A stretch of 61,971 nt of DNA, counting the filler, from Sphacelaria rigidula (taxonomy: Eukaryota), in NCBI GenBank assembly GCA_964200075.2. It is 7 parts of 7 records of this genome, joined end to end, with 100 filler letters (N's around TTAATTAATTAA, not from the genome) between each part and the next. Parts side by side here need not be neighbours in the genome. Positions count along the whole stretch, not along the records: positions 53,207 to 61,971 come from CAXNAA020010160.1; 6 more parts are not named here. One strand, given 5' to 3'. The notes beneath the pieces were generated by a model. The model worked only from the letters and a program-made list of their open reading frames with translations, was not told where the DNA came from and did not search any database. The position numbers were made by a program, and so were the translations under genes. How positions within the stretch are numbered: position 1 is the stretch's first letter; the number at the start of each line of letters is the position of its first letter. Positions 402 through 61,971 of the stretch are shown here, piece after piece.

Positions 402-842
402 TACGGGATCTTACAAATTGGGGATGGATTTTTTATTTGGGGACGAGAAACCCGGAGAATTGAAATCTTCGTCTTCACACCGAAGCTTCGAAATATGGTT
501 CCATTTCTTCACCAACTGATAGCTATTGACAACTCCTACACGCCATAGAAAGTTGGATTTCGATCACCGAAATATTGAGGTCCTAGGTGAAAATCCAAAC
601 TTGGGGAATTCCGGGTGTCCGAACAGACGCCAAAATGGTTCTGAAAATGCTTTTGCACCAGGGACTCCAACACTTCGATGATCGAAATCCAAATTTCCAT
701 AACGTGTGGCAGTTGTCAACAGCTATCCGTAGGTGGAGAAATAGAACCATATCTCGAAGACGTGGTGTGGATACGAAGGTTTGAGTTCTCCGGGCTTCTC
801 ACCCCCAATAAAAGATCCATCTTCAATATGTAAGATCCCGTG
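402..842. mobile_element. Foldback/MITE-like non-autonomous element with ~190-bp imperfect inverted arms
   Basis: The left arm tacgggatcttacaaattggggatggat...ccggagaa...ttgacaact...ttggatttcgatca is the reverse complement of the right arm tgatcgaaatccaa...agttgtcaa...ttctccgg...atccatcttcaatatgtaagatcccgtg. Termini are (T/C)ACGG...CCGTG, flanked by TGAA/TTAA. Confidence 0.75.
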
Positions 843-2400
843 TTAATACAGCACATCAAGCGATCTCGGGGGAGACGAAACCGTTTTCGCAAGGCCTAAA
901 CACACCCCAGAACAGTGATAGCTACAGCACATGAGAGCGGAAGTGAGTGTGTTTGTGGTGCAGTACAGTCAGTCAAGACATGTCTCATGTTTTAGTTTTT
1001 CGGCTGATTTAAAACGAGCTCTCGGTGTTTGCAGGGTGCCGATCTTCAACGCTCGGACATAGCCGCTGTTTGCACAAATAATTTAATTTAGTACAAAATT
1101 GTCTTCATGTATGGGTCCTGTGCCATTAATTTCGCAACAAGAGAAGCTGATGCATACTGTATATAGTCCGTGTTTAGGTTCTAAAACTAAAAAGCACTGC
1201 AGAACTGCCGTGTTGTCTTGTGTTCTGTGCAGTACTCTGTACTCCATATATCGCTGCAGAAGTGTCTTGTGTTCAGTGTAGTACGCTGTGCTCCATAAAA
1301 TGGGGTCATGTTTTGAGAAGTTTTCGAAAAGTTCTGCTGTTTTTTTTCAAAAGTATCCCGAAAAACACGAGTGTTTTTTGTCACAAAAATCTAATGCCGA
1401 ATCTGGAATAGCCTGAGACAACAACTAATTTGAAAAGTTGGAATACGATGACTCTTGTTCGCGAGAATCGGCGCACATTTGACTTTTTTTTTTGCTTGGC
1501 GCAACACTGGTTCGTTTGGCTTGTTATTCCAACGAGAATTGCTTTGTGACGGTTACACAGCGGTGGAACATACAGGCGGTGCGTTTGGAGAATCCACGAT
1601 GTTCGCGTTGAGGACTTGTAGTGTGTTCCATGGACATTCCTACTTTATCGCCCTACCCCTCAGCTTACTTCAATGAAAGTCTATCCACACGACCTGCAGA
1701 GGACATGTCAACTAGGTCCCATCTGTACGAGATATCAGATAGACCAGAGTGAGGGTCCTATTTGTGTATACAATCATAAACATTTCTGGCGGGTGCGAAC
1801 GACACCTATACTGCTAGATTTTAGTCAACCACGTCTACACAAGGCATACCTAGTATGTGGTGTACATGACAGCAGCAAGTTGATTGCTACAACCTGGAAG
1901 CTAGCAGATTAATAGGGCAGGAAGCAGAGGACAGGCACTAGATTCAGCTATTTATAGCTTTTGTTGAGTTGATACTCATGGACTGCGGTAGCTGGTGCAA
2001 GCGTAGTATTTTCCCGATAAGAGTTGTGTAGATACTCCTAAAATGTCGCTGTTCCCGCACGTACAGCCTGGAGTCTCTGTATAGCTCTCTACTTCGGTAT
2101 ACCTCCGCGGGGGCGACGAAATAGCTAGAGTGTCCGTACAGGAATGTGAGACACTGCGTACGCTGTCGTTTGGGATACACATGCAGGCCACACCCGTATA
2201 AATCAAGGGTCCACGACACCCTGGTGGAACATAGCATTGGGGTATCAGGACCCCACAACCTCACGAGCTCCTCCGCATCGAGAGAGCAAACCAATCCGTA
2301 TCAGCCACTTTCCGTTTGAGTGGGCGGGTCGTGCAAGCTGGCGTCCAGCATATTCCCCGCGTAAACAAAACAAGATCAGTACAAAATACAGAATCATCCA

Positions 2401-4989
2401 TCATCTGTCGGACGCCTCCCCTAGTTCCAACTTCACGCTCGAACCCTCCAACGCCTGTGCTGATTTCACACCAACAAACCCGCCAACAGACCCACTTACA
2501 GTCGCCGACGAAACATACAGAGGTCCTGCACTCACACCACAACTGCTGCTGCTGGAGCTACTCCGACCACCTGCACTGCTAAAACCCCACAAAGGGCCAG
2601 TATGCTTGCTACGCTCTACCATTCCAGCGTCACTGTATATAGGAGAAGGAGCTTCCGCCTCTACCTTCATTCCAGCTCCTACCCTTGGCGCGGAAGACTC
2701 CTCAAGATCAGCCACTGAGGGTGGCTGGCCCGAAAGCAACAGTGGTGTTACACCACTACGCCTGGCAATAGGGCACACACTACCTTCAACACCAACAACG
2801 TCGCTTGTACCAGAACTCCAGCATGGTGCGCGCTTGCGTTTTGTTCCTCGAACGCCAGCAGCGCTTCCTCCACCGCCATCAGTTGTGCTACCGGTGGAGG
2901 TGGCCTTGCCAGTGCTGAGCTCTCCTGTGTCGTATACCGTAGCTGCGTCATGCGCAGTAGGATACTGTCGAAACAACTTTGCCTTATCTAGGACGTCAAT
3001 CTCGAGAATCTGCGGAATTGAGCATTCCCCTTTACTAGACTTGCATCTCACCGGATCCACCTTTCCCGCCATCGCAAGCTGAGGGGAGAAATCTGCGTTC
3101 TCGATTGCGCCAGCAGCATACGACGGTCTTTTCGAGCAGCTCTCATCGCCGCACTTCTCGCTCACCAGACTCGCCATTCCTGCCCTGGCATGCTGAGGGC
3201 AAAACTCCACCTTCTTGCTTCCCACTACACCACAGGACGGCTGCCTGGAGCAGCCCTCGTCGCCGCGCGTCTTTTTCACCACATCCACCATCCCCGCCCT
3301 GGCATGCTGAGAGCAGAATTCCGCCTTTTTGCTTCCCGCCACAACATACGACAGCGTATTCAAGCAGCCCTCGTGGCCGCAGGTCCTGTTCACCACATCC
3401 ACCATTCCAGCCCTCGCATGCTGAGAGCAGTACTCCGCCATCTTGCTCCCCGCTACACCATACGACGGCTTCTTCCAGCAGCCCTGCTCGCCGCATTTCT
3501 TTGTGACCACATTCACCATTCCCACCCTGGCATGCCGAGAGCAGAACTCCGCCTTCTTGCTACCCGCTACACCGTACGACGGCGTCTTGGGGCAGCCCTT
3601 GTCGCCGCACCTCTTCTTCAACACATTCACCATTCCAGCCCTCGCATGCCGAGAGCAGAACTCTGCCTTCTTGCTTCCCGGTACACCATACGACGGCATC
3701 TTGGAGCAACTCTTATCGCCGCACTTCTTGTACACCAGATCCACCATTCCCGCCCTGGCATGCCGAGAGCAGAACTCCGCCTTACTGCTTCCCACTACAC
3801 CATACGACCGCTGCCTGGAGCAGCCCTCGTCGCCGCATTTCTTGCTCAATACATTCACCATTGCCGTACTGGCATGCTGAGAGCAGAACTCCGCCTTCTT
3901 GCTCCCCGCTACACCATACGACGGCATCTTGGAGCAACTCTTATCGCCGCACTTCTTGTACACCACATCGACCATTCCCGCTCTGGCATGCTTCAAGCAG
4001 AACTCCGCCTTACTGCTTCCCGCTACACTATACGACGGCAACTTGGAGCAGCCCTCGTCGCCGCATTTCTTGTTCAATACATTCACCATTGCCGCACTGG
4101 CATGCCGAAAGCAGAACTCTGCCTTCTTGCTCCCCGCTACACCGTACGACGGCTGCCTGGAGCAGCCCTCGTCGCCGCACCTCTTCTTCAACACGTTCAC
4201 CATTCCAGCCCTCGCATGCTGAGAGCAGAACTCTGCCATCTTGGTTCCCGCTTCACCATAGGAAGGCGACTTGGAGCAGCCCTCATCGCCACATTTCTTG
4301 CCGATCACACTCACCATTCCCGCCATGGCATGCCGAGAGCAGAATTCCGCCTTCTTGCTTCCCGCTACACCAAACGATGGGTACTTGAGGCAGCCCTCGT
4401 CGCAGCACCTCTTCTTCAACACGTTCACCATTCCAGCCCTCGCATGCTTCAAGCAGAACTCTGCCATCTTGGTTCCCGCTTCACCATACGACGGCGACTT
4501 GGAGCAGCGCTCGTCACCACATTTCTTGCTCACCAAATCCACCATTCCAGCCCTCGCATGCTGAGAGCAGAACTCCGCCTTCTTGCTCCCCGCTACGCCA
4601 TAGGACCGCCGCGTGGAACAGCCCTCGTGGTAGCACTTCGTCTGCAACACACTCACCATTCCAGTCCTCGCATGCTGAGAGCAGAACTCTGCCTTCCTGC
4701 TTCCCGCTACACCATACGACGGTTTCTTGGAACAGCCCTCGTCGCTACATTTCTTGCTCACCACATCCTCCATTCCAGCCCTGGCATGCTGAGAGCAGAA
4801 CTCTGCCTTCTTGCTTCCCGCCACACCATACGACGGCCTTTTGGAGCAGCCTTCGTCACCGCACTTCTTGCCCGACACTTTCACCATTCCCGCCCTGGCA
4901 TGCTGAAAGCAGAACTCCGCCTTGTAGCCCGGTAAAGCGTACGATGGCCATTTCAAGCAGTCTTCGTTGATGCACTCCCTTTTCCACAT
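2401..4989 (-). CDS. EsV-1-7 cysteine-rich repeat protein (~16 full + 1 degenerate C-x4-C-x16-C-x2-H repeats, low-complexity C-terminal tail with a basic NLS-like motif)
   Basis: Uninterrupted ORF with 38-aa repeats KKCGDEGCSKxPSYGVAGSKKAEFCSQHARAGMVxVV. Likely ATG at 4989 (MWKREC). An upstream polypyrimidine tract plus CAG acceptor on the minus strand (exon starts at 5081) suggests a 5' intron. The tail contains GTKRKR. Confidence 0.88.
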   Translation of the reverse strand: MWKRECINEDCLKWPSYALPGYKAEFCFQHARAGMVKVSGKKCGDEGCSKRPSYGVAGSKKAEFCSQHARAGMEDVVSKKCSDEGCSKKPSYGVAGSRKAEFCSQHARTGMVSVLQTKCYHEGCSTRRSYGVAGSKKAEFCSQHARAGMVDLVSKKCGDERCSKSPSYGEAGTKMAEFCLKHARAGMVNVLKKRCCDEGCLKYPSFGVAGSKKAEFCSRHAMAGMVSVIGKKCGDEGCSKSPSYGEAGTKMAEFCSQHARAGMVNVLKKRCGDEGCSRQPSYGVAGSKKAEFCFRHASAAMVNVLNKKCGDEGCSKLPSYSVAGSSKAEFCLKHARAGMVDVVYKKCGDKSCSKMPSYGVAGSKKAEFCSQHASTAMVNVLSKKCGDEGCSRQRSYGVVGSSKAEFCSRHARAGMVDLVYKKCGDKSCSKMPSYGVPGSKKAEFCSRHARAGMVNVLKKRCGDKGCPKTPSYGVAGSKKAEFCSRHARVGMVNVVTKKCGEQGCWKKPSYGVAGSKMAEYCSQHARAGMVDVVNRTCGHEGCLNTLSYVVAGSKKAEFCSQHARAGMVDVVKKTRGDEGCSRQPSCGVVGSKKVEFCPQHARAGMASLVSEKCGDESCSKRPSYAAGAIENADFSPQLAMAGKVDPVRCKSSKGECSIPQILEIDVLDKAKLFRQYPTAHDAATVYDTGELSTGKATSTGSTTDGGGGSAAGVRGTKRKRAPCWSSGTSDVVGVEGSVCPIARRSGVTPLLLSGQPPSVADLEESSAPRVGAGMKVEAEAPSPIYSDAGMVERSKHTGPLWGFSSAGGRSSSSSSSCGVSAGPLYVSSATVSGSVGGFVGVKSAQALEGSSVKLELGEASDR
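3110..4980 (-). repeat. Coding tandem repeat, 114-bp unit (~17 copies)
   Basis: gcagaactc...accatacgacggc...cagccctcgtcgccgca...accattcc recurs every 114 nt. Confidence 0.95.
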
Positions 4990-44359: not shown

Positions 44360-47300
44360 ATGACTCCTGATTTGAACTTGACCACATCGGATCATGTAAT
44401 TCTCAATCAGTTGGATCGAGCTCCTTCCCCGCGATTTTCAACACGCACGGACCTACCTTCGGCCGGTTCTAATAGCAACCGCCCCAACATATTTTTGGCT
44501 ATGACCCAACAGCCAAGCTTGCCTACGGAAAGCAGCCCACAACTTTCGCTCCATCATGCCCCGATGCTGACCCCATCCACGCAACTGGACGCAGTTGTGG
44601 TTTCATCCCAAAATGTTTTGGAAGTTCCCCGACCTTTGTCACGGCGAAAGAGAAAGCCCCGTAAGCATGCCCCCCAAGGACGCGCGCGCATCATTACGTA
44701 CACCTCTTTCAAGCGGAAATCCTCGACCTCAATCTCTCCAAAATGCGACGACTTTGAGTTCGACGGCTCTATTAAGTATCCCGGAAGAAACAAAATCAAC
44801 TAATTCTGACGGCACTACTTCATCAATCGACGACTACAGCCCCGCACATTCTGGATCCCCCTTGGACGGTGATCTCTGTCAACCAAGGACGATCATTTAC
44901 GAAATCGCCAATGGTCACTCTGATCGTGCCACACCTGGAGACAATATACCGTCCACCCCCTTCTCTGGTGAGACATCTGACCCAACGGCGGATCACCTGC
45001 CGTGCGTTTTTGCTGTCAGCCCCGCTGATCCTGACCAGTTTACCTTGCCGGAACACGGTCCGGATCTTGTCGGCGGTAAAGTGTCTGTAGATCCGGCCAC
45101 TTTTACTACTCGCGTTGCGATCCATTCCGGTCCAAACGCTACCACGCCTACGAAATGCGTATCCTTCTTGGACAGCAGCAGCCCGCGAACATTTACTCGA
45201 GAATCAACATGGAAACACATGAAACAAACTGGCACTGCTACTGCAGCTTGCGAAACCACCACCAAACCTCGCGTGTGGGGCGGTTTCGGTGATTCTGCCG
45301 CACCACTGACGACACGTAAATCCGTACGTCTCAGTGTACAATTTTTCCACAAAACCACTCGATCTGCCAGCCTGGCAGTCTGGGCATACATTGTCCCCGA
45401 CAGCACAATGTATCACGCCATATTATTGGGCAGAGATAGCTGTATGCGGTTTAATAAACGCACCTACCGCACACGCGTCCACCACTAACGCCACATTCCA
45501 AGCCTTGTGGAGAATTCAACCTCGAGCACTTCGGTACTCTCCACGGCGCCCTGGCCTACCAGAAGAATCCTCAAGCAACCGGGGCTGCTTACCACCTACG
45601 ATACAACGGTAGCGTTGGTATTACACTCTCCGACGACCCCCAACTTTTAGAAGTTGCACTAGTTCGCCGAAATGGCATGCCAGCACTTATGGACCATTAT
45701 CTTGCCGAAATTGTTACCCCGTATTGGCGCACCAGCCGACACAGAACATTTTTGTGTCGGCGGGACAACAACTCCTCCCTCTTACGGGTCATGCTAACTT
45801 GGAACCCGGCGATGGTTTTAGGAATCGCCGCTGCTCCCCTGATGCACATCCCACTCGAGACGTGCGAAACAGAGCCTGCCGCGCCAAACGCCACATATAC
45901 GGCGGAGTCAGTCCATTGTCTCGATGAACCCTATTTCGACCTCGCCTCCGCGACTCCACCCCAGGTCCAGACCGTGGATCCTGCCCAGTCAAATTCCGAT
46001 CCTCCTGCTGAGGTGCTTCAACGCTCATCACCAGATTCTCGGAATAGTTTATCGCACATGTGGAACCAACTGCCGCCACACATGCGCGACATCAATTTTG
46101 ACCTTTATGGGCCCGGCTGGGAACCGGCAGTCATCCGAGAACTCAGTGATGTTCTGCTATAGTACCAAGACCGATTTTCCAGATCCAAGACGGATCTTGG
46201 GCATTGCAAAAGACTACCCTTTGAGGTTACCCTTCAACCCGGCGTCTCACCGATTTCTTCTCCGCCATACCGCACAAACCCAATCCTTACCGAAAAAGTT
46301 AACTCCATCTTGGATGCGTATTTGCGAGCGGGATTAATACAACATTCCTCCTCCCCTTGGGCCTCGCCCCTTGTGGTCGTCCCCCAAAAGGATGGAAACA
46401 TACGCATAACCGTGAATTATCAACGGTTGAAACGCGTCACTGTAGTCGGCATACTTCCGATTCCCCGCATTGATGAAGTCTTCGACTCCTTGGGCGAGGG
46501 CAAAGTATTCAGCACCTTCGACCCTGACACAGTCCCACTGACGGCTTCTTGTACCTCGTCCGGACTCTATGAGTGACTTCGGGTGCCACAAGGCGCCGCC
46601 ACTGCCCCGGGATGCTTCCAACGCTTAATGCAATGAGTCACCGTGGGCCTCGAGTACATCATCATGTACCTGGATGACGCCATCGCTTTCGATGCCTCAC
46701 CCATTGCACATATCTGCACTCTACGAGAATTTCTCTCTCGCCTACGCACGCACGATTTGAAACTGTCTCCATCCAAAGCTCGCCTTGGTGCGACTGACTT
46801 GGATTTTGGGGGGAATTCCATTTCGCCATCAGGCCTGCATCTGGATACAAACAAAGCCAAGGCCATGACTGATTTGCCGATGCCAACTAACATTTCTCAA
46901 CTTCACTTATTGTTGAGCGGGCTATCCCACTACCGCAAAATTTTGCCGCACTTACCTAAACGGATTCGCCCCCTTACTGAGTTACTCAAGGAAGGAGCTG
47001 TGGTTTCCTTCACAACCGAAATGGAGAATATGACCCGCGAAATACTCAAGACGCTTACCGAGAAGCCGGTACTCTGCTTTCCTGATTGGGAGGCAGTACA
47101 AGATGGCTCCCGCCTTTTCCAACCCCACACTGACGCCAGCACAAACGGATTTGGAGGAGTTTTGAATCAATCTTAGCTTGATGTCTCCGTCCGACCCATC
47201 CTCTATATCAGCCGCGCTATCGTGCCCAACGAGCCCGCTAGAACTGGAAGGCGGAGTAATCACTTGGACCATCAAGCGCCTTCGACAATACCTGTTTCAC

Positions 47301-50270
47301 GTGCCCTTTGAGATCTACACGGATCACGGAGCACTCTAACAACTCGCCAAGGTTGGCGACCACAACCCGCGTGTACAACGATGGTTGGAGTTTCGAACAG
47401 CATAGCAGTATACCATTAAGTACCGTCCAGGAAAAACCAACGGAAACGCTGATCTTCTTTCTCGCCTACCTCTGTCGCCTACGGCCGCAGATTGCAGCTT
47501 GGCTTGCCGTTGAACGGAACCCGACAAACCTGGAATTCACGCGATTAGACGATTTTCAACGCCCGTTTACGCCCTCGACCTCCAGTGCCCGGAAACTGGT
47601 ATGCATATGGGAGGACCTCGCCTTCTACCATATGACGCCGTCTTCGATGGGTTAAAGCCCCCCACTTTCGATTTGTCGATTTCCGCACTTTCGTTACTCG
47701 CGCGAAACTCTTCGCGAAGACACCTCCAGTCACCCACCTTGTCTCCGACAACATGCGCTCCCGGTCTGCCGCCCGCACAACACCGTGTGCCCCGCCGCCA
47801 CGGATAACACCTGCAACCCCTACGAGCTACCCAGCACAACTTCAACGGACCAACACGCAACGCTCCGCGACAACTTCTGCACCGTGCACCACGCGCCGCG
47901 GACAATCTTCGCCGCGCACTAATACAGCCCCGCCGCCCACCACGGCGCCGCCAACATTTACCGCTCCCGAGCACGGCACTGACGACTTAGCTCCGGCCTC
48001 CGGGACAGATATTGACGTCGGCATTCCTGCCCCGTCGCCTATTCCCCCGCCGCCTGCCCCGCCATGTTTGGTTGGCTCGCCAGCGGAAGGTTAACTACGC
48101 GAGTTTCTCGCCAGCTACTCCCACCGTGATTGGGCTCGCGAACAAAACGCAGAACCGATATGTCGCGCAGCCATCTGGTACTTACAACTCGACTGTCCAG
48201 TCCCTTTTCCATCCACACTTCTGGCCCCGGTTGGCACACTGCCACCACCAGTTATTTCTGACGTATACGAGCTCGTGCGTAAAGGCACCCTTTTTACTAC
48301 GGATGAAGATGTGCAACAACTCGTGCGTCGGCCCACGTTTTTGACAGGCGCAATTGCCGCCTCAACCACGGGACGCACCGCATGACTACTCAATGACGAA
48401 CCAACGCGCATATATGTGCCATTATTAATGCGCCCCTGGGTCATGAAAGGCTGCCACACAGACTTGTCATGTCACCTTGGCGTCATCCGCACTCTCGCGC
48501 TCTTCGAACGCTTCTACTGGTGGGTTCGCATGGAAATTTCAACCCGCTTCTGGATTCGGCGATGCTTCCAATGCCAAGCTCGAAAATATTCACGACAGAC
48601 AGTACGCTGGCCCGTCATCTCTATGAAACTCCCCAACGAGCCCAGCCACTTTGTTGTGTCCTTTGATTACTTTGGCGTTCTACCGACCACAGGTCGCGGC
48701 AACACCTACATCTTACTCTTCACTGACCGCTTCAGCCGCCACGCGTCCATGTACGCGGTAACCGCCGCGGATTTCACTGCCGGCGGAACGGCCGACATAC
48801 TGGTTCACGATTACATCAAGCATTACGGTTGCCCAAAGCGACTACTTTCAGACAATGGTCAGTAATTTTGCTCAGATTTCTCTGATGAGATTTACAAGCT
48901 CCTGGGCATCCGCAAAATTGCCACGAGCGCCTACCACCCGAACGGTAATGGTGGTACCGAAAGAGTGAATCACACCATGGCCCAGATGCTCTCTATGGTT
49001 GTCAATGACCGCCAAAATGACTGGGACTTACATCTCTCGCACATCATGTTGTCCTACAACAACTCGGTTGATGCCGCCACAGGCCTTTCTCCGAACGAAC
49101 TTCATCTTGGACGTTACCCTCGGCTGCCTATCACCGTGTTTGAGCGACACACGTTCGACGGCCACCAAGGATTGAATCAGGATCAGATATCCTACCACGA
49201 GCTAGCGCACGCGCGACAACGCAAAGCGTTTACCCTCGTGCGCGAACAACACGCTACCAACGCCTCGCGCCTAGAGATATCTAACACTGCTCTCTACAAC
49301 CTCATGCACAAATGCCCTGACTGGAAAGTTGGTAATTGGGTTTGGATCTACAATAGTTTGTCGACCATCCGCCAAGGCACCTGCAAGGCAGCCAACGAAA
49401 CAATTTTGAAGACAAAACTGTGCCTCAATTGGACAGGACCATTCAAGATCCTGACAGTCGGACCTCGTCATCATCACCGGATGAAAAACCCGTTGGTGAC
49501 AAACTGCTCTATCTCAACTTGCCTCGTGACTTCCAGGGCAAGAACACCAAACCCCACGTCTCCGTGCATAGATGTAAACCCTGCACGGACCCGCATGATA
49601 CAAGTGACATGCCCAAGTACCTGCCTGCCGGACTCACACAGTATGTTCTCAATAGCTACTCGACCAAGTCCCCGTCCTACCACGTTACAACCGACGACGT
49701 GACGGAACAGCCCCTTCGATTGAAAGTGTCCTCCAGCTCCGACTACCAGATAACCCGTGGCTGAGGAGGCAAAATCGCTGTCATGTATAAGACACACTGG
49801 CACGGTTCTTGGAGAGCGTCTTGGGAACGCGAATCCGACCTGCAATCGCACCGCCGTGCAATCCTCCTTTACTGGACGCGATCCCAACATCAGCATCTTG
49901 CTCACAACGAGAAATATCGCAACATGCGCCGTGGCGCAGCAGCCCGCAAACTTCACCGCAATCAGGGACTACGCTTCGTCGCAGATGGTTACAAACTTGT
50001 ACCCACCAAGACTTGTAAGACGAAGTTCTTCGCGAACCAGCGACTCACGCCCAAGGGCAGCTACCTTTGGTTCAAAGGCAGCGACAACCTCTGGTAGTTG
50101 GGTCAGACCCACTCCGATAACCTGGTTTCCGCCGACACATACATCGCGCGCTTCATCGATGACCCTGAACCCATACAGCTCAAGCTTCGGCCAGCACTTT
50201 ACACCACCAGCCCATCTGCGCCACGCGGATCCTGGTGCCTCTAGCGCCTCAAGTCGAAAGGACTTTGCCG
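44360..50270 (+). mobile_element. Degenerate Ty3/Gypsy LTR retrotransposon pol (PR-RT-RNaseH-IN-chromo-like), with many stops and frameshifts
   Basis: Protease: FLDSSS...ILLGRD. RT: SPWASPLVVV, PIPRIDE, YLDD. RNase H: HTDAS..GFGGVL. Integrase: H...HLG, CFQCQ, DRFS, SDNG, NGGTERVN, WTGPF. Chromo-like: YKTHWHG...SWERESDL. The domain order RT-RH-IN is Ty3/Gypsy. Confidence 0.95.
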
Positions 50271-53206: not shown

Positions 53207-55013
53207 CAGGCAGAAGAAATCGTGAATTTGGTGATTTTGAGTCGTGATGATTTGTCCTAACCGTGGATTTTTCGCCAACTTCGGTTCTTACTTTTCCATT
53301 CTCTTTTTTTGTTACGACCTAGTCTGCTATGTCGTTCTGTTCGACTTTTTTTTTCTGTTCCTTTTTTTCTTCGGAGCGTGTTTCAGTTTCGTTTTTCTTG
53401 GGTACGTCTATCCTGAGACCACGGCTGGACCCCTGGGGGGTCAGTTGAAGTGCGACAATCAATCAATCAATCAAATCGCTCCGCAACAACGCACAACATG
53501 GAACTTCTGTCGCCGTGAGCTGCATCTTGCTAGTGCAGCATTGCAGACCCACACTACACCGCAAGCGAGCGCTAAACGACGTATGTGGTAGATCAATACG
53601 CGGGGCAATGACCTGGGGCAGCGTTCAGTGCTCTGCTGATATCGTGATAAAATTCAAAATGGGCTCCATTCTCTTTTGCTTTTCCACCTGTTACCCTGGA
53701 AAATTGAATGCGAAAGTCGAAGTTGGGAACAACCGGTAGAACACGTGAACTGCGGTGCTCACAGCGCTGGCTGTTCGGCTGCGCATGATCTGCGCAAACT
53801 CGTTGAGGGCCTATGCACATGGCTCATGTTCTGCGACGTGATGTTAGTAGTACAGTATAGGCAGGGCGGCGCAGTCACTGAAGACAGTACAGAACGTGTG
53901 CACAGTAAAGTCAGTACAGCCACGAATCCACGAGTAAAACCGTGTTCACCCACCCCCCCCCCCTCCAACGCCCCCCCCACCCCCTTCTCCACCCCNNNNN
54001 NNNNNACAAGAACAACAGAGTTGCACGACAACACCCCCCACACCCCCCAAACCCGTAAAAACCACGCTTCCCCCCCCCCCCCCCCCCCCCCCCAACTGGT
54101 TTTGAACGCACATGCCACACGGCGAGACAACCGTCAGTGACGCTCATCTTGGAGGAATGGTAGAAACAGCACATTGCACCCGCGCCAATATTTCGGCCAG
54201 CATTACAGTGCGTCGAACGGAATCAGTACAACGTTTCATACGGGAAAACGAGGACATCTAGAAGTCTTTCCAGAATCTGTGCAAGGGGTATTTTTTCCCC
54301 TTTTTTCTCCGGATTGCAACACAGGTGTGTTGTGAACATCTGTCCAACTTGCTTCGTCTCCGATGTATCATGTCTACTATTCAGCCGCGCTCCGGCAGGG
54401 TAGCGGTGCAACTGACACCGTAAAGAACGCGGGTTTGATTCCCGTCGGATGCGTCTGGGGTTTTTCTTAATTCTGATTTCCCTCCTTGAAAGCGTGAGTG
54501 CATGGATAGCGGAAAGAGTTGACTGAGTTTGCTTGACGTCAGTCGACACGGTGCGGGAAAGCTAATCCAATGACCAAAATGCGAAGCGTGTTCCGGGGAA
54601 GAGATGAATGAGTGGGTGAATCCTTTGAGGCCAAGGGCTCGTCCCGAGGAGGGGTGTACTCATGATCATGCATGCCATAGTCATCAGACTATTGACCTCG
54701 CATCCCTACAAAGCCAGGACGGAGCACGCCGGGTTTTCGCCGGACCAGGCTCCCGAGGAGGGGGAGGGGGGGGGAGGGGTGAGAGTATGATGAAAAATAA
54801 CTGTGAGCCACATCTCTACCAAAAAATATTTACCATACAGTTCGAGTGTATGCTAGAGCGATATCCTTGCAGGAACCCCTTGGTCCGAAGCATCACCGTT
54901 TCGCCGTATGGTTCAACAAACAAGATCGGTAGTCTAAAACTTGTTTTCACGATAAGCCAAATCTGACCTGGACTGATCTTCACGACTGTGTCTCGCTGTC
55001 ATGTCTTTTCCAG

Positions 55014-55139
55014 GGCAAGTACGCTGAGGCTGAGTCACTCTACGAGCGGTGCCAGGCGATCGAGGAGAAGATTCTTGGCCCGGAGCACCCAAGCTTTGCC
55101 GAAGCGATGGAAAGCCGCGCGGTGTTGTTGAGAGCTCAG
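55014..55139 (+). CDS. TPR array exon 1 (42-aa TPR, probably part of an NB-ARC-TPR-type gene)
   Basis: cag|...|gtga, 126 nt, phase 0. GKYAEAESLYERCQAIEEKILGPEHPSFAEAMESRAVLLRAQ. Confidence 0.92.
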
Positions 55140-55242: not shown

Positions 55243-55365
55243 GGTCAGTGCGGCGAAGCCAGCCTGTTGTACCTTTGAGCGGTCGAGATCGGCCATAGTA
55301 CCGTCGGCCCTGTACACATGGTGCTCGCCGGCTGCACACCTAGGCGGGGCGGCGGCGCGAGCTTT
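55243..55365 (+). pseudogene. Intronic decayed TPR pseudo-exon (counterparts in the other introns of the array)
   Basis: Translates GQCGEASLLYL*AVEIGHSTVGPVHMVLA, in register with GKYAEAESLYERCQAIEEKILGPEHPSFA. A frameshift follows and splice sites are lacking. Confidence 0.75.
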
Positions 55366-55431
55366 TCACCACCGTTGTGGGCCCGACGTCAACTGTTATA
55401 CGCTGCTTTTGCGTCGTATACTACATTTCAG

Positions 55432-55557
55432 GGCAAGTACGCCGAGGCCAAGCCACTCTTCGAGCGGTGCCAGGCAATACAGGAGAAAGTTCTTGGCCCG
55501 AATCATCCTGATTTGGCCGTGACGATGGGCAGCCGTGCGCGGTTGTTGCAATCTCAG
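55432..55557 (+). CDS. TPR array exon 2
   Basis: cag|...|gtga, 126 nt. GKYAEAKPLFERCQAIQEKVLGPNHPDLAVTMGSRARLLQSQ. Confidence 0.92.
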
Positions 55558-55614
55558 GTGAGAGCCTACATGCCCTCCTCGTAGTCGTGTGTCGACTCGT
55601 GAACGACATCGTGT

Positions 55615-57880
55615 TGGGGCTGTGGACTGGCAGCTCTGGGCAGGAAAGTTTATACTGGCCGCGTCATGTTTTTCGATTTCACCCGGGAAGCGCCAGTGAT
55701 ACAGGCAAAGAAAAGCACCAATGAAATATAGAATTGGTCAAGTTGAAGCGAATGATAAAAACCTACTCTCAATCAGCGCTCTACTCTCAACATTACGGAA
55801 ACATTGTTGAATGCAGACAGTTGTACAAATTTTGACCCCTCACATTGAGGAGCTGAGATCGACTCTAATGGGAGCCGTTCAGGTTTTATTCCAAAATGTT
55901 TGAACGAGTGGTCACAAAGACACTTGATATGGAACAAAATCGCCAAGATTTAGACCCCCAAAAGTTTGAACGGACCAAGAAAATACTAAATTCCGGCCAA
56001 GCGCTCAGAATCAGGAGACGATTCAAAGCGTTTGAGGGCCTGTTGAAAAATTGGCACAAAAAGTATAATGACACTTGTAATATTTTTTTGTACTACATCA
56101 CACACCGGTGGCTCCTTCATGTGCTGCACCTTTCACTGCACAGTCGTGAGTTTAGACCTTGCCAAAACTGTGTGGTCTCTGCTGGGATTACCAGAGCAGC
56201 TGTACTGCTATTACATTCCGAACAACTGCGGTCGGCAGACGGTGCTGTCTTGTCGAAGTTGAAAATACTCTACAGCATTTGTTTGTTGGATATCGTGTCC
56301 TTCGCAAAGAACAAGGTCCTTGATGCGCAGACCCAGCGTTACTGTCCTGTAGCTGACAGGTAGTGCGGTGCCCTGCAAATACGGTTTGATCTGCGCTGAG
56401 GATTGCATGAAGTGCCGTACTGTTGTTGTGTCGCGGTCGGTACACAAGTCTAGACACTGCGAAAGCGCCACCATCATGGCGTATTGGATGCGTTGGGCCG
56501 TTTATAAAACCAATCAATGACGCAATAATTCATGCCCACGTTACTTATTGTTATGCTGCAGTTGTTGTTCTGACTGTAGTGCGTTTAAATCCTTCGAATA
56601 CGGTTTGATCTTCGCTGGAGATTGTCCGAGATGCTGAACTGCCGCTGGTCCGGTCTGTACAGATGGGTGGGAACGAAACCCTGTTCGCATGAAGTTGAAA
56701 ACGTTACGTTATGGGTGTACAGCTGCCATGTCTTCTACAGGTGCTGTTGTACAAGTGCACAACGCCTAGGTCACGCCAATTTCATCATCTATGTGCAACT
56801 CCAGCGTCATGCCGTAATAGTGTTTTTTTTTTGTCCCAGTTCAGAATCGTGGCAGAAAACAAACTCGTTTGAAATGTAAAACAAACAAACGTTTGAACGG
56901 CTCCCATGAGAGTTGGCCTAAGAGGCTTCAAAAACATTAAAATCCCATTCAAAGCAATGAGCGACTCGACAATCATTCATCTGTAGCATGCAGCCGCAGA
57001 GACTCTTCTGGAGGAGTGGAGGGTGGGAACATGGAAGCCAAGACTCGCAGCACGTGGGGATAAAAGCGCAAAGTTATTGACGTCCGGGCAGACAAACACG
57101 CATGCCGTTGAATAGCAAGCCATGGTGTATTTTGTATTTTGTGGTCGTGGGTTACCGTTTTTTATTTGTGTCGGCTGTCGTGCAATGAAACGACAATAAG
57201 TGTGCCCGCTCTATCACTTCAAGGTGTAGTGAGCATGTGCTGCGTCATGTTCAACGTTCATCATGCACTTAGCGTTTGAGATTCGGCAGTTCCGCATCAA
57301 GCGCCCCGCCGTATATAAGTAACTCACAACTCCTTTTTCTTTCTACAGCTTAGTTTTCTTTCTTCATTTTCGACCTACACGCTACAGCCGAAAAAGCGGA
57401 AAACTGCAGAACCACGAGGGACCAACGAAGCAACCGGGACAGAAACACCTGAAGTAGTCAAGTAGTGATCGGCATAGGGCAAACCCGTTCTGAATGTGCT
57501 ACGGAACTACAACAGGATGTCAGACCTATACTGTACAAGTCGACCGAACCGCGGAAGACGTAGTATAAAGCTGTGCACCGCTGCTTCACGCGTCATCGAC
57601 GCAAGCAATTTCTGTCAACGCCTTCGAAGCGCCCTCCGTCTTAACTGATACCCCCACATTCCTCTGCAATTGTAAAGTGCAGGCCTCAGTTGTACAGTCA
57701 CATCGTATATAACTGTTTCATAAGCTTTGTCATAAACTCACTATACTAAAATTAATATACATATTGCCGGTAACGGTAAACCTCGAATAAACTGGATAAA
57801 CTGGCACCCTCGTCGCCAGTTCCAGTTTAACTCCAGTTCTGGTCCAATCGACAGTATAAACGGTCCGGTTCACAGCCCTA
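55615..57880. mobile_element. Non-autonomous hAT-like element in TPR intron 2
   Basis: TIRs tggggctgtggactgg / ccggttcacagcccta and an 8-bp TSD CATCGTGT/CATCCTGT. The paralogous intron 6 lacks the insertion. Confidence 0.75.
55857..56918. mobile_element. Nested PIF/Harbinger-like non-autonomous element
   Basis: TIRs gatcgactctaatgggagccgttca / tgaacggctcccatgagagttggcc and a 3-bp TSD TGA/TAA. The empty site gaggagcTAAgaggctt is visible at ~12478-12494. Confidence 0.7.
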
Positions 57881-58121
57881 CATCCTGTGGTGTTGGTGAT
57901 GCTCGCTTGTCCTCTGGATCAACGTTGCCTGAGAGGGTGCGGCTAGGTCAACCCGTTATACCTCTGTGCTGTCGACATCGAATACACTGCTCCTGATCCT
58001 GTGCACACCGCAATCGCCGGCTGCACACCTGGGCGGGGCGGTGGCGCGAGCGTCTCCCCACCGTTGTAGGTCCGACGTTGGCCCTCATTGGCTTGCCTCT
58101 GCGTCGTGTACTACATGTCAG

Positions 58122-58247
58122 GGCAAGTACAACGAGGCTGAGCGACTCTACGAGCGATGCCAAGCGATCGAGGAGAAGGCTCTCGGCCCGGAGCACCCAA
58201 GCTTCGCCACAACGCTTCACAACCGTGCGGGTTTGTTTCAAGATCAG
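58122..58247 (+). CDS. TPR array exon 3
   Basis: cag|...|gtga, 126 nt. GKYNEAERLYERCQAIEEKALGPEHPSFATTLHNRAGLFQDQ. Confidence 0.92.
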
Positions 58248-58569
58248 GTGAGAGCCGATGGAGCTTTGTAGTGGTAGTGTCTCGACGTGTGAATGAATTT
58301 ATGTTGTGTTGATGTTGGTCACTGATCCTGTCGGCCGACGTAGACTGAGAGGATGCGGCAATGCCAGACCGTCGTACCTCTGCGCCATCGGTATCGGGCA
58401 TATTACCCTCGGCCCTTCAGATGTAGCGCTCATCGGCTGCACACCAGGGGGGGGGCGGTAGCGCAGCGTCTCCCCGAAGTTGTAGGTCCGAAGTTGACTG
58501 TTATGGGTTGCTTCTACTTCGTTGCCTGCGCTTTGACTGTTGGCCTACGGCACACTGTGCTATATTCAG

Positions 58570-58695
58570 GGCAAGTACGACGAGGCCGAGACACTCTACG
58601 AGCGGTGCCAAGTGATCAGGGAGAAGATTCTCGGCCCGGATCATCTAGTATTCGCCGCCACGCTTCACCGCCGTGGGACGTTGTTGCAAGCCCGG
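58570..58695 (+). CDS. TPR array exon 4
   Basis: cag|...|gtga, 126 nt. GKYDEAETLYERCQVIREKILGPDHLVFAATLHRRGTLLQAR. Confidence 0.9.
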
Positions 58696-58981
58696 GTGAG
58701 AGCCGGTATAACATTGTCGTAGTCGTTTGCTGATGCGTGGACGAGATTGCGAGGGGTTGACGTTGTTCGCTGGCCCTGGGGGGGCAACGTTGACTGACAG
58801 GATTACTGCTGCGAGGCCAATTCGGTGTACGTCTGAGTCATGGTTACCGGGTACAGCACAGACCTTGTACACACATCGCTCGCCGGCCTCACACGTGGGC
58901 GGGGGAGTGGCGCGAGCGTCTTGTCGCCGTTGCAGGCGCGACGTTAACTATTATAGACTTCTTCTGCGTCGCGTACTACAT

Positions 58982-60705
58982 TGCACGGTCCGCACGAATT
59001 ATACCGTAATTCGGCTGATATTCAGCATTCGTACGAATCAACGATACGATTCGTACACAAGTTGTGATTCGTACGTGATTTCGGTTCGCGATTCGCGCAA
59101 CATCACTTGGATTGTACACATCCCCAGTTCGTGATTTGTGCGGTACACTGACGAATGTTCATGTTCCATACGTTCCATTCGTATCGGATAAATCGTAGGT
59201 ACATGTTCTCCACCTTCCGCTCTCGTAAGAGCGAATCAAGCGTACATGTTTCGCGCCTTCTGTTCGCATAACACAATCATGAGAGCACGTTGTTTCCCAT
59301 CCGGTATTTCATGGGGCGCGACTCTCCGGTGGCATGGCCGTTTTACAGGTGGGGTATGCAAGTAGGACCGTACAGGTGGCCAACCCCTCGAACTCTAAAT
59401 CCGCAATAACCCAAAATTCAAATATTGTACTGAAATGTTACACATGAAATATAGTACAGCACACGCGTTTGCGTGCCCACAGCGGTTCTTCTCGCCAGGC
59501 ATTTTCCCGAGCTATGCTATTAGCAGCATTTTTTATTTCATTTGTAGTTTCAGGATGTGTTGCGTGGTACAGTTGAGCTGAATGTACTGTATCTAATACC
59601 GCAGACACTTTCTGAAAAAACATCAGCACGGGTCGTCCTCGTATGTTCGCGGGACGTTTTGGGAAACCTCCGGCGGCGTACACGGCAGTCCGTAGAGAGT
59701 GCGGTATAAGATAGCACACCATGCATCTGCGCGCCTAGAGCGATTCGTCTAGCTTATTTTTTTCCCGGGCAATTGCTGTCGACGACCCTCCTGCGGTTTC
59801 ATGTTTTGTTCTGCGGTATAGTTGGCCTGGCTATATAAAACAGTACAAAGACATCTGCAGACAGCATCAGCACTGCAAGAGTCGTTCCTGGATGTTCGCG
59901 TGAGTTTTCGGAAACACTCCGGCAGCACTGCAATCAGTGGGCAGTACAGTACAGTACAGCACAGCATAGTGTTGTGCAATCTGTACACCGGACAACAGGC
60001 AACAGTAGTACGAAGCCTTCACAATAATCCGGCATGATACATTCCGTATTTCTCCCCTTGATTATGCAGCATCAATCACGTCATTCATGTACATGTTTTC
60101 CGCCTTGCTCTCGTTCAGCATGAACCATGGGTGCATGTTCCCCACCTTTCATTAACACGAGGTGAATCAAGCGTACATACTTTCAATTTTCATGCACCCA
60201 GCACAAGTCATAAGTGCATGTTCCTTATCTTCCATTCATACGAGGTGAATCAAGCGTACATGTTTTCCAATTTCCATTCGTACAGCATGAGTCATACGCA
60301 CATGTTCTCCGCCTTCCATCCATACGAGGTGAATCAAGCGTACATGTTTTCCAATTTCCATTCGTACAGCATGAGTCATACGCACATCTTCTCCGCCTTC
60401 CATCATACGAGGTGAATCAAGCGTACATGTTTTCCAATTTCCATTCATGGAGCATGAGCCATACGTACATGTTCCCCAATCAATTATTCATACAGAAAGT
60501 GTGATTGGTACATATTTTCCACCTCTTGATTCGTGTGACACTACTGGGGATGTACACATTCCCAGTTCGTGATTCGTGCAATATGGCCTTGAACGTACAA
60601 CTTTACTGTCCGTGATTGATACCGGATGACTCTTTGATACATGTTGTGCATTCAACATTCATGAGGAGTCAATCCGCATGAGCTCTGATTATTCCGAACC
60701 GTGCA
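58982..60705. mobile_element. 1.7-kb non-autonomous TIR element inserted just upstream of the exon-5 splice acceptor
   Basis: ACAT|tgcacggtccgca...tccgaaccgtgca|ACATgcag. It interrupts the conserved gcgtcg.gtactacat..cag acceptor motif and carries many gattcgt/acgaatc subterminal motifs. Confidence 0.75.
60150..60480. repeat. ~84-bp tandem repeat (~3-4 copies) inside the 1.7-kb element
   Basis: acgaggtgaatcaagcgtacatgttttccaatttccattcgtacagcatgagtcatacgcacat... is repeated. Confidence 0.9.
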
Positions 60706-60713
60706 ACATGCAG

Positions 60714-60839
60714 GGCAAGTACGCCGAGGCCGAGTCATACTACGAGCGGTCCCACGCGATAAACGAGAAGCTTCTTGGTACGGAGCACCCAGCGGTGGCG
60801 GCAACGCTGGGAAGCCGTGCGGAGTTGTTTCGGGCTCAG
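60714..60839 (+). CDS. TPR array exon 5
   Basis: cag|...|gtga, 126 nt. GKYAEAESYYERSHAINEKLLGTEHPAVAATLGSRAELFRAQ. Confidence 0.88.
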
Positions 60840-61102
60840 GTGAGAGGCGGTGGAACTTCCTCGTACTGCCAGATGTCGGCGTGCGACGGACGTGGTGCGG
60901 CGTTGATATCGTTCGCTGGTCCTGTGGGCCAATGTTGAGTTTGGGTCAGTGCGGCGAAGCCCGCCCGTTGTGCCTCTGGTCGAGATCGGGCATAGTATCC
61001 TCGACCCTGAACCCATGGCGCTCAACGACTGCACACCTGGGCGGGGTGGCGGTGCGAGCTTAACTGTTGTGCGCTGCTTCTGCGTCGTGTACTACATTGC
61101 AG

Positions 61103-61228
61103 GGTAAGTACGCTGAGGCTGCGGCACTGTACGAGCGGTGCCAGGCGATGCAGGAGAAGCTCCTCGGCCCGGATCATCCTGAGTTGGCCGTAGTGATGGG
61201 GAGCCATGCGTGGTTGTTGCAAGCTCAG
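61103..61228 (+). CDS. TPR array exon 6
   Basis: cag|...|gtaa, 126 nt. GKYAEAAALYERCQAMQEKLLGPDHPELAVVMGSHAWLLQAQ. Confidence 0.92.
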
Positions 61229-61497
61229 GTAAGAACCGATGTGCCTTCCTCGTAGTCGTGTGTCGACTTGTGAACAACACATTGTGATGTTGGTGTTGCT
61301 CGCTGGCCCCGAGGGCCAACGTTGACTGAAAGGCTGCGGCTAGGTCAACCCGTGATACCTCTGTGCTGTCGATATCGAATACACTACTCTTGACCCTGTG
61401 CACACCGCAATCGCCGGCTGCACACCTGGGCGGGGCGGTGGTTGTTGGTCCGACGTTGACCCTTATGCGCTGATTTGCGACGTGTACTACATGTCAG

Positions 61498-61623
61498 GGC
61501 AAGTACAACGAGGCCGAGCGACTCTACGAGCGATGCCAAGCGATCGAGGAGAAGGCTCTCGGCCCGGAGCACCCAAGCTTCGCCACAACGCTTCACGACC
61601 GTGCGAGTTTGTGTCATGTTCAG
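61498..61623 (+). CDS. TPR array exon 7
   Basis: cag|...|gtga, 126 nt. GKYNEAERLYERCQAIEEKALGPEHPSFATTLHDRASLCHVQ. Confidence 0.92.
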
Positions 61624-61945
61624 GTGAGAGCCGATGGAGCTTTGTAGTGGTAGTGTCTCGACGTGTGAATGAATTTATGTTGTGTTGATGTTGGTCACTG
61701 ATCCTGTCGGCCGACGCAGACTGAGAGGATGCGGCAATGCCAGACCGTCGTACCTCTGCGCCATCGGTATCGGGCATATTACCCTCGGCCCTTCAGATGT
61801 AGCGCTCATCGGCTGCACACCAGGGGGGGGGCGGTAGCGCAGCATCTCCCCGAAGTTGTAGGTCCGAAGTTGACTGTTATGGGTTGCTTCTACTTCGTTG
61901 CCTGCGCTTTGACTGTTGGCCTACGGCACACTGTGCTATATTCAG

Positions 61946-61971
61946 GGCAAGTACGACGAGGCCGAGACACT
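61946..61971 (+). CDS. TPR array exon 8 (truncated by the window end)
   Basis: ttcag|ggc aag tac gac gag gcc gag aca (GKYDEAET), identical to the start of exon 4. Confidence 0.85.

What the first reader, a model, noticed from the sequence alone, without database searches (positions are those of the whole stretch)
55243..61850. The introns of the TPR array hide decayed TPR pseudo-exons of a second subtype
Seen: intron 1 reads GQCGEASLLYL*AVEIGHSTVGPVHMVLA. It matches the real exons at G1, E5, A6, L9, Y10, I16, G22, P23, H25 and A29, with TGA at the R12 position. Equivalents occur at ~57935 (GCG*VNPLYLCAVDIE...PVH), ~58351 and ~61727 (GCGNARPSYLCAIGIGHITLGP), ~58804 (EANSVYV*), ~60944 (GQCGEARPL) and ~61332. 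The most conserved intron motif, cggctgcacacc(t/a)gg(g)cgggg, corresponds to the exon's 'LHNRAG' segment. Inference: the amplified unit is live exon + dead exon. The relics could simply be fossils, or could serve as homology or donor tracts for shuffling and gene conversion.
Basis: partly seen in the sequence, partly recalled or inferred. Interest (0 to 1): 0.8.

Follow-up and report, generated by a model that had tools for sequence, protein, structure and literature searches.

The report
Dead TPR exons fossilised inside introns
Each intron of this brown-alga-type immune-receptor-like repeat gene carries the decayed remains of a second kind of repeat exon that is still in use in related genes, a real but largely expected fossil of how such repeat arrays grow.

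Summary
The window ends in an array of seven complete 126-nt, one-repeat TPR exons. Each of the seven homologous introns holds, at the same position, a 117-122-nt stretch collinear with a TPR exon. Exon-versus-intron consensus alignment beats 2000 of 2000 shuffles and all 1104 real-sequence chunks.

The "second subtype" is real. The relics resemble an LYLRAIEIGEKTLGP-type repeat that is still spliced in many brown-algal NB-ARC-TPR proteins (19.8 bits, iE 1.6e-7; BLASTP E 2e-8). They resemble the neighbouring RCQAI-type exons less.

All seven relics share a 4-nt frameshifting deletion and lack a GT donor, so the exon died once, before the live-plus-dead unit was amplified.

The relics' first 87 nt drift at intron speed. 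Intron-less contigs from runs guessed to be RNA join the live exons directly. No relic-derived tracts are seen in exons. They are therefore fossils, not donors.

The kind is already published: inactivated TPR exons in introns of Ectocarpus NB-ARC-TPR genes (PMC3341825). New here are the regular one-relic-per-intron unit and the subtype assignment. One 21-nt core in the relic tail is unusually conserved and remains unexplained. Modest interest.

The parts
54822..54929 (+). Extra, shorter decayed TPR exon upstream of the array. It has a TAG after codon 36 and no GT donor, and it resembles the ..RAIAIGEKTLGP..LAVWLNNRA repeat type.
   Evidence: nhmmer exon HMM hit at 54858-54915, E 0.0015. Cluster-22 HMM gives 5.6 bits, iE 0.0049. 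Translation. Pfam gives 0 families.
55014..55139 (+). Live TPR exon E1 (126 nt, 42 aa, RCQAI type).
   Evidence: Pfam TPR_12 E 9.3e-7. Joined directly to E2 in contigs of runs X5 and X7.
55243..55364 (+). Relic r1, the best-preserved dead type-II exon. TGA at codon 12, shared 4-nt deletion, acceptor GA, no GT donor.
   Evidence: 19.8 bits; BLASTP E 2e-8 to P0007 residues 973-1009.
55432..55557 (+). Live exon E2.
55618..57879 (.). About 2.26 kb of repetitive DNA inserted into intron 2, upstream of relic r2.
   Evidence: The intron HMM matches 55558-55617 and resumes at 57880. DNA-run depth is 170-4222 in the bins wholly inside the insertion.
57932..58053 (+). Relic r2. TAG at codon 5, shared 4-nt deletion.
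58122..58247 (+). Live exon E3.
   Evidence: E3-E4 joint 58243->58566 with GT..AG ends in run X5.
58348..58469 (+). Relic r3. No stop in the first 29 codons, shared 4-nt deletion, then a TAG.
   Evidence: 4.1 bits, iE 0.014.
58570..58695 (+). Live exon E4.
58801..58919 (+). Relic r4, the most decayed. TGA at codon 12, an extra 3-nt deletion, and the only relic with AG at the aligned acceptor.
58986..60690 (.). Repetitive insertion in intron 4. It includes an 84-nt minisatellite at 60134-60478. The unit's usual 3' ...CAG reads ...CAC just before it.
   Evidence: DNA depth reaches 5669.
60714..60839 (+). Live exon E5.
60944..61061 (+). Relic r5. An extra 4-nt deletion at codons 12-13, plus the shared 4-nt deletion.
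61103..61228 (+). Live exon E6.
61329..61445 (+). Relic r6. TAG at codon 5, TGA at codon 9, shared 4-nt deletion, tail partly deleted.
61498..61623 (+). Live exon E7, a near copy of E3.
61724..61845 (+). Relic r7, a near copy of r3.
61946..61971 (+). Start of live exon E8, cut by the window end.
58018..58038 (+). One of seven copies of the 21-nt core CGGCTGCACACCTGGGCGGGG, the most conserved piece of the intron. It lies in the relic tail. The other copies are at 55329, 58434, 58884, 61026, 61415 and 61810.

Best explanation
The stretches are fossil exons.

An ancestral piece of a brown-alga-type TPR array (the type found in NB-ARC-TPR genes) had two neighbouring one-repeat exons. One was an RCQAI-type ('type I') exon and the other an LYLRAIEIGEKTLGP-type ('type II') exon. 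The type II exon was inactivated once, by a 4-nt frameshifting deletion and loss of its splice signals. A CGA>TGA stop at codon 12 probably also occurred at that stage. The dead exon became part of a roughly 290-nt intron.

The resulting unit of about 418 nt (live type I exon plus intron with dead type II exon) was then copied in tandem. A four-unit block was duplicated again (E1-E4 resemble E5-E8).

Shown here: the homology, the subtype, the shared lesions, an intron-like substitution rate over the first 87 nt, and direct exon-to-exon joining in intron-less contigs.

Inferred: the order of events, the ancestral TGA, and that the relics have no present function beyond being intron sequence that adds homology between units.
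For: Homology:
- Consensus alignment covers exon nt 5-118. It scores 164 against a null of 94 +/- 12, with 0 of 2000 shuffles reaching it.
- None of 1104 real-sequence chunks reach the scores of 4 of 7 introns.
- MAFFT places all 7 relics in register with the 7 exons, ungapped over the first 87 nt apart from private deletions in r4 (3 nt) and r5 (4 nt).
- Consensus-to-consensus identity is 68/122, higher than the per-copy mean of 45%.
- The half-unit alignment extends past the exon end into the intron. It scores 200 against 114 +/- 16, with 0 of 2000 shuffles reaching it.

Subtype:
-.
- At the 7 scorable positions that separate the two types, relic 1 has the type II residue at 5 (L11, A13, E15, G17, T20) and the type I residue at 0.
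- An intact type II exon with AG and GT signals sits 64 nt downstream of a type I exon in the related metagenome contig L054.

Single death before amplification:
- The 4-nt deletion is present in 7 of 7 relics. GT at the aligned donor is present in 0 of 7, and AG at the aligned acceptor in 1 of 7.
- The introns are homologous over their full length.

Neutrality (mean pairwise identity between copies):
- Relic first 87 nt: 0.660.
- Intron 5' part: 0.662.
- Exon third codon positions: 0.684.
- Exon first and second positions: 0.790 and 0.784.

Not spliced in:
- An X5 contig joins 55046-55135 directly to 55428-55553.
- An X7 contig chains four exons.
- A GT..AG joint 58243->58566 is seen.
- Contigs of run X1 (kind not on record, read as DNA) run straight through the introns.
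Against: - Standard tools do not see the relics. nhmmer found no hit. Pfam gave 0 families for the 5 of 7 relic read-throughs sent.
- Individually, 4 of 7 introns are not significant in the ungapped shuffle test.
- The seven relics are copies of one ancestor, so they amount to roughly one independent observation.
- At nucleotide level the subtype call is undecided. At 44 sites that separate L054's type II exon from the window's exon consensus, the relic consensus follows type II at 15, type I at 15 and neither at 14. L054 comes from another organism, which confounds this comparison.
- The relic tail is more conserved than the rest (0.79 identity; 21-nt core 0.889; 12 of 2000 permutations reach it). 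Pure neutral decay does not predict this.
- Runs X5 and X7 are only guessed to be RNA.
- The intron pieces on either side of the relic are not significantly alike on their own (257 of 3000 shuffles).
Confidence: 0.85

Rival explanations
1. Exapted element. The relics began as dead exons, but their 21-nt G-rich core is now kept by selection. It could act as an intronic splicing signal for these short exons, or as a pairing or recombination signal that helps the units duplicate and shuffle.
For: The 21-column window holding the core is the most conserved of the intron alignment. Its identity is 0.889 against an overall 0.684, and 12 of 2000 column permutations reach it. The core is present in 7 of 7 introns with at most 3 mismatches, and nowhere else in the 62 kb window.
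Against: - Only six related copies were used, so the excess may reflect shared ancestry or a local low mutation rate.
- A 35-column window is not exceptional (634 of 2000).
- No match was found in the metagenome contig scan.
- No functional data exist.
Confidence: 0.08
2. Donor reservoir. The dead exons serve as templates for gene conversion or exon shuffling into the live exons, in the way pseudogene V segments do in birds. The bird comparison is recalled, not from a call.
For: - Exon variants equal the relic base at 28 of 58 informative sites, against 19.3 expected (binomial p 0.013).
- Exons diverge faster than their introns between young duplicates. E3/E7 differ at 6 of 126 exon sites and 2 of 322 intron sites (Fisher p 0.0075).
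- Exon shuffling has been proposed for this gene family (PMC3341825, passages read).
Against: - The 28 matches are scattered. The longest run is two adjacent sites, and several are shared by duplicate exons, so they are not independent.
- Every relic carries the same frameshift, and most carry stops, so a tract of any length would disable an exon. None of the 7 exons is disabled.
- The first 87 nt of the relics drift at intron rate.
- The E7-specific cluster does not resemble the relic tail (by eye).
Confidence: 0.04
3. Chance or compositional resemblance between GC-rich intron sequence and a GC-rich exon.
For: - No hit with nhmmer or Pfam.
- Per-copy nucleotide identity is only about 45%.
- There is no codon-position pattern in the matches (17, 14 and 15 of 29).
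Against: - Dinucleotide-preserving shuffles and real-sequence controls are both exceeded.
- The reverse strand scores like the null.
- An HMM built only from other species' proteins finds relic 1 at iE 1.6e-7 in the six-frame translation of the window.
- BLASTP gives E 2e-8.
- The relic consensus scores higher than any single copy (32.8 against 19.8 bits).
Confidence: 0.02
4. Separate insertions. Dead type II exons were shuffled independently into each intron, rather than being copied together with the unit.
For: Scattered inactivated TPR exons in introns are reported for Ectocarpus (PMC3341825). Contig L054 shows many exon-tail fragments scattered in one intron.
Against: - The relic sits at the same aligned position in all 7 introns.
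- Both flanks are homologous between introns.
- The 4-nt deletion is identical in all 7.
Confidence: 0.02

Closest known systems
Inactivated TPR exons in introns of Ectocarpus NB-ARC-TPR loci (Zambounis et al. 2012, PMC3341825; passages read, supplements not seen)
   Same: - 42-aa (126-nt) exons, each coding one TPR plus linker.
- The signature GKYxEA[E/D]PL[Y/F].
- Inactivated TPR exons lie in the intervening introns. They are judged inactive by stops, lost splice sites or truncation, and almost all are on the coding strand.
- The best protein hits of the window's exons are brown-algal NB-ARC+TPR proteins.
   Different: - Here the dead exon is regular: one per intron, at the same place, with the same lesions. 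It is part of the amplified unit, and it is old (about 45-56% nucleotide identity to live exons).
- It belongs to a different repeat subtype from its live neighbours.
- Whether that paper's supplementary table lists such regular units could not be checked.
- No NB-ARC part lies in the window.
[quoted passage not shown]
   Same: - Relic 1 shares 19-20 of 35 compared residues with such repeats.
- HMM score 19.8 bits, BLASTP E 2e-8.
- Type II residues are present at 5 of 7 discriminating positions.
   Different: The live repeats are strongly conserved, with 13 of 42 positions invariant in 25 repeats, and they are spliced. The window's copies have stops, a frameshift and no donor, and are skipped in the contigs.
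Teng et al. 2023, Plant J 114:246 (NB-ARC-TPR exon shuffling and alternative splicing in brown algae). Not held; known only from its citation and a summary sentence in PMC11378527.
   Same: Same gene family and the same one-repeat exons.
   Different: Its content could not be read. It may already describe intronic relics or repeat subtypes.
Pseudogene donors for gene conversion in immune receptor diversification (recalled general knowledge, not from a call)
   Same: Non-functional copies of a receptor module lie next to functional ones.
   Different: No relic-derived tracts are seen in the exons here, and all relics share disabling lesions. This is a resemblance of layout only.

Membership tests
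Brown-algal NB-ARC-TPR genes with repetitive TPR exons (as defined in PMC3341825) | TPR domain built of 126-nt (42-aa) exons, one repeat each | tested here: met
   Seven exons of exactly 126 nt, flanked by AG and GT. Exon-exon joints are seen in contigs.
Brown-algal NB-ARC-TPR genes with repetitive TPR exons (as defined in PMC3341825) | Repeat signature GKYxEA[E/D]PL[Y/F]....G.[D/E]...[V/I]A..L.N.A.LL..Q | tested here: met
   The translations follow it with a few substitutions. The signature itself is taken from the paper passage.
Brown-algal NB-ARC-TPR genes with repetitive TPR exons (as defined in PMC3341825) | NB-ARC domain encoded upstream in the same gene | tested here: inconclusive
   tblastn of five NB-ARC+TPR proteins gives no hit below 54800. 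Upstream lie assembly gaps and a broken retroelement, so the 5' part of the gene may lie outside the window.
Brown-algal NB-ARC-TPR genes with repetitive TPR exons (as defined in PMC3341825) | Closest proteins are brown-algal NB-ARC+TPR proteins | tested here: met
   Top named hits are from Scytosiphon, Sphacelaria, Ectocarpus and Pylaiella, at 76-81% identity per repeat, and most of them carry PF00931.
Inactivated intronic TPR exon (PMC3341825) | TPR-exon-like sequence in an intron of the array, on the coding strand, disabled by a stop, a frameshift or loss of splice sites | tested here: met
TPR repeat (Pfam TPR_12 / TPR_10) | Significant match of the relic read-through to the Pfam models | tested here: not met
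   0 families for the 5 of 7 relic read-throughs sent, at E<=10. The live exons match TPR_12 at E 2e-7 to 9e-7. The relics are recognised only by lineage-specific repeat HMMs and BLASTP.
Type II (LYLRAIEIGEKTLGP) repeat subtype | Type II rather than type I residues at positions 7, 11, 13, 14, 15, 17 and 20 | tested here: met
   Relic 1 has L11, A13, E15, G17 and T20 as type II, and V14 and S7 as neither. It has no type I state. HMM 32.8 against 14.0 bits for the relic consensus. The nucleotide-level comparison is undecided, 15 to 15.

The most novel reading that the evidence does not exclude
The dead type II exons are not inert. Their 21-nt G-rich core, the best-kept part of every intron, has been taken over as a cis-signal. 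It would either guide splicing of these one-repeat exons or act as the pairing and breakage site that lets units duplicate and shuffle. That would give the long-proposed 'targeted exon shuffling' of brown-algal receptor candidates a concrete sequence handle.
Probability: 0.07. Interest if true: 0.6.

Novelty: new member of a known kind. Interest (0 to 1): 0.3.

Why it matters
It shows how one of these candidate immune-receptor repeat arrays grew. A two-exon segment lost one exon, and the half-dead unit was then amplified. Array growth here therefore copied introns and fossils along with exons.

It also shows that deep exon relics, invisible to Pfam and nhmmer, can be recovered and typed with lineage-specific repeat profiles. 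That is useful when annotating such genes and when dating array expansions.

It gives no support to the idea that intronic relics feed diversity back into the exons.

Tried and rejected
- nhmmer with a 7-exon DNA HMM against the introns gave no hit at E<=10. A looser rerun failed on an option clash inside the script.
- Strict local alignment (2/-3) was no better than shuffles.
- A profile-profile Smith-Waterman with harsh scoring was reached by 94 of 300 permutations.
- Pfam on 5 of the 7 relics, sent as read-throughs, gave 0 families. Pfam on the upstream relic also gave 0 families.
- The intron piece before the relic against the piece after it was not significant (257, 458 and 356 of 3000 shuffles). 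A by-eye resemblance of GGCCAACGTTGACTG and GGTCCGACGTTGACTG was therefore dropped.
- Codon-position periodicity of relic-exon matches was absent.
- Typing the relic at nucleotide level against L054's type II exon was undecided, 15:15:14.
- No whole genome is held for this window. Paralogous arrays and the spread of the unit in this species could not be surveyed.
- A scan of metagenome contigs for the 21-nt core found 0 matches.
- The look-up of sequencing runs listed no RNA holder. The intron bins without cover in X5, X7 and X8 are not used as evidence.
- The X7 contig that follows E2 with an E7-like exon could be exon skipping or an assembly path through identical sequence. It is not interpreted.
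- The scan's earlier notes gave nothing on this genome or sequence. The one listed note, on a human gene, was not used.
- Teng et al. 2023 is not held.
- Searches for prior description: terms 'exon shuffling, TPR, brown alga, NB-ARC', 'NB-ARC-TPR, inactivated, exon', and 'NB-ARC-TPR, brown alga, alternative splicing'. Only PMC3341825 describes intronic inactivated TPR exons.
- No structure or complex prediction was run. It would not bear on a dead exon.

Full report
**Anatomy**

The last 7 kb of the window hold an array of seven complete 126-nt exons and the start of an eighth. The complete exons are at 55014, 55432, 58122, 58570, 60714, 61103 and 61498, and the eighth starts at 61946. Each is bounded by AG and GT and codes one 42-residue TPR of the GKY.EAE.LYERCQAI.EK.LGP.HP type. 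Pfam reads the live exons as TPR_12 and TPR_10.

The seven introns align with each other over their whole length, about 263-322 nt, at 71% mean column identity. Intron 2 and intron 4 are swollen by repetitive insertions. Units 1-4 pair with units 5-8, so a four-unit block was duplicated.

The closest proteins are brown-algal NB-ARC+TPR proteins from Scytosiphon, Sphacelaria, Ectocarpus and Pylaiella. The window is therefore from a brown alga or a close relative. No NB-ARC coding part lies in the window. Upstream lie assembly gaps and a broken LTR-retroelement pol.

Standard detectors miss them:
- nhmmer with the exon HMM finds nothing in the introns.
- Pfam finds nothing in the five relic read-throughs I sent (r1, r2, r3, r4, r6).
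- Strict local scoring is no better than shuffles.

Tests suited to about 50% identity do see them:
- Sliding the exon consensus without gaps puts the best offset exactly at the relic in 5 of 7 introns.
- Dinucleotide shuffles reach the observed value in 0, 1 and 3 of 2000 for introns 1, 2 and 6. They reach it in 184 to 1801 of 2000 for the other four.
- Consensus exon against consensus intron gives a collinear alignment of exon nt 5-118. No shuffle out of 2000 reaches its score in four scoring schemes, and 16 of 2000 do in a fifth. The reverse strand scores like the null.
- Against 1104 real chunks of the same window, none reaches introns 1, 2, 5 and 6. Four reach introns 3 and 7, and 13 reach intron 4.
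- MAFFT, given exons and relics together, puts all seven relics in register with the exons.
- The consensus pair is 68/122 identical, whereas single copies average 45%. That is what common descent predicts.

**Which kind of TPR?**

I cut 127 live 42-residue repeats out of 15 brown-algal proteins and clustered them without reference to the relics. One small cluster has the consensus ..DPLYLRAIEIGEKTLGPDHPDLATRLNNRAG... It hits relic 1 in the six-frame translation of the whole window at 19.8 bits (iE 1.6e-7), and relics 3, 7 and 6 at about 4 bits. The dominant RCQAI cluster (60 repeats) hits no relic.

BLASTP of relic 1 against one such protein gives E 2e-8 to an LRAIEIG repeat, and only E 0.003-0.006 to RCQAI repeats in the same protein. 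Against an all-RCQAI protein it gives E 0.002.

The relic consensus, read in exon register, scores 32.8 bits on the type II cluster and 14.0 on the type I cluster.

A second search, seeded with a type II repeat, shows the subtype in Ectocarpus, Pylaiella, Laminaria and Scytosiphon proteins. In 30 proteins, 25 of 252 repeats are type II, spread over 17 proteins. One protein reads I-II-I-II. Eighteen of those 30 proteins were picked by the type II query, so the frequency is biased upward.

A metagenome contig, L054, shows an intact type II exon with AG and GT signals 64 nt after a type I exon.

At nucleotide level the typing is undecided, 15:15:14 informative sites. This is probably because L054 is another species with different codon choice.

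**When did it die?**

All seven relics share a 4-nt deletion after codon 29-30. None has GT at the aligned donor, and only r4 has AG at the aligned acceptor.

Codon 12, which is R in live repeats, reads TGA in r1 and r4 and TGY in r2, r3, r6 and r7. It is hit by a deletion in r5. An early CGA>TGA change is a fair inference, no more.

Shared lesions plus fully homologous flanks mean one inactivation, followed by amplification of the live-plus-dead unit.

**Is it used?**

- Contigs from runs guessed to be RNA join E1 to E2 and E3 to E4 directly, and one chains four exons. Contigs of run X1 (kind not on record, read as DNA) run through the introns.
- Between copies, the first 87 nt of the relic are 0.660 identical. 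The intron before it is 0.662, exon third positions 0.684, and exon first and second positions 0.79 and 0.78.
- Exon variants match the relic base at 28 of 58 informative sites, against 19.3 expected. They are scattered and partly shared by duplicate exons. No exon carries a relic-like run.
- The relics therefore look like fossils.
- One thing does not fit pure decay. The 21-nt core CGGCTGCACACCTGGGCGGGG is the best-conserved stretch of the intron (0.889; 12 of 2000 permutations reach it). It is found in all seven introns and nowhere else in the window.

**What is known**

Zambounis et al. 2012 (PMC3341825; passages read) describe the same exon type in Ectocarpus. [quoted passage not shown]

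The kind is therefore known. The regular one-relic-per-intron unit, its age and its subtype are additions.

Their supplementary table and Teng et al. 2023 could not be read, so these additions may also be in print.

**Caveats**

- The seven relics are one evolutionary event.
- No genome is held.
- The RNA status of the runs is a guess.

Noticed in passing
window 58122-58569 vs 61498-61945: In the youngest duplicate pair the exon has changed more than its intron: 6 of 126 exon sites against 2 of 322 intron sites (Fisher p 0.0075). Five of the six changes are amino-acid replacements packed into the last 9 codons (N34D, G37S, F39C, Q40H, D41V). This fits diversifying selection or a short conversion tract from an unseen paralogue.
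   Followed up: partly
window E1/E5 and E2/E6 with their introns: In the older duplicate pairs the exons are also less alike than the relics beside them. E1/E5 exons are 99/126 identical and their relics 99/116. E2/E6 exons are 103/126 identical and their relics 105/112.
   Followed up: no
window 54822-54929: A further decayed, shorter TPR exon lies just upstream of the first live exon. It reads ..VYARAISLQEPLGPKHHRFAVWFNKQDR then TAG, has no GT donor, and is nearest to the ..LAVWLNNRA repeat type.
   Followed up: partly
window 58975-58990: Unit 4's intron ends ...CTACATTGCAC where the other units have ...CAG followed by an exon. Repetitive DNA follows instead, so one exon seems to have been lost or displaced here.
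   Followed up: no
window 55606-55617 and 57880-57896: The 2.26-kb insertion in intron 2 is flanked by ACATCGTGT and ACATCCTGT. The intron model positions 49-60 are present on both sides, which suggests a target-site duplication. DNA depth shows the insert is highly repeated in the genome.
   Followed up: no
window 60134-60478: An 84-nt minisatellite, 4.1 copies at 86% match, lies inside the intron 4 insertion.
   Followed up: no
window 46637-49702: A broken LTR-retrotransposon pol lies upstream of the array, with frames split. It gives Integrase_H2C2 at E 4e-12 and weak RVT_1, RT_RNaseH_2 and rve matches.
   Followed up: partly
L054:1-1350: This metagenome contig is a collapsed 1290-nt repeat unit of a related array. 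It holds a type I-like exon whose 3' end and donor are missing, an intact type II exon, and a 974-nt intron. The intron contains six further 'exon tail + GTGAGAG donor' fragments, five on the plus strand and one on the minus strand.
   Followed up: partly
window 55428-55553 joined to 61494-61618 in a contig of run X7: One intron-less contig follows E2 with an E7-like exon rather than E3. This is either skipping of four exons or an assembly path through the 81 nt that E3 and E7 share.
   Followed up: no
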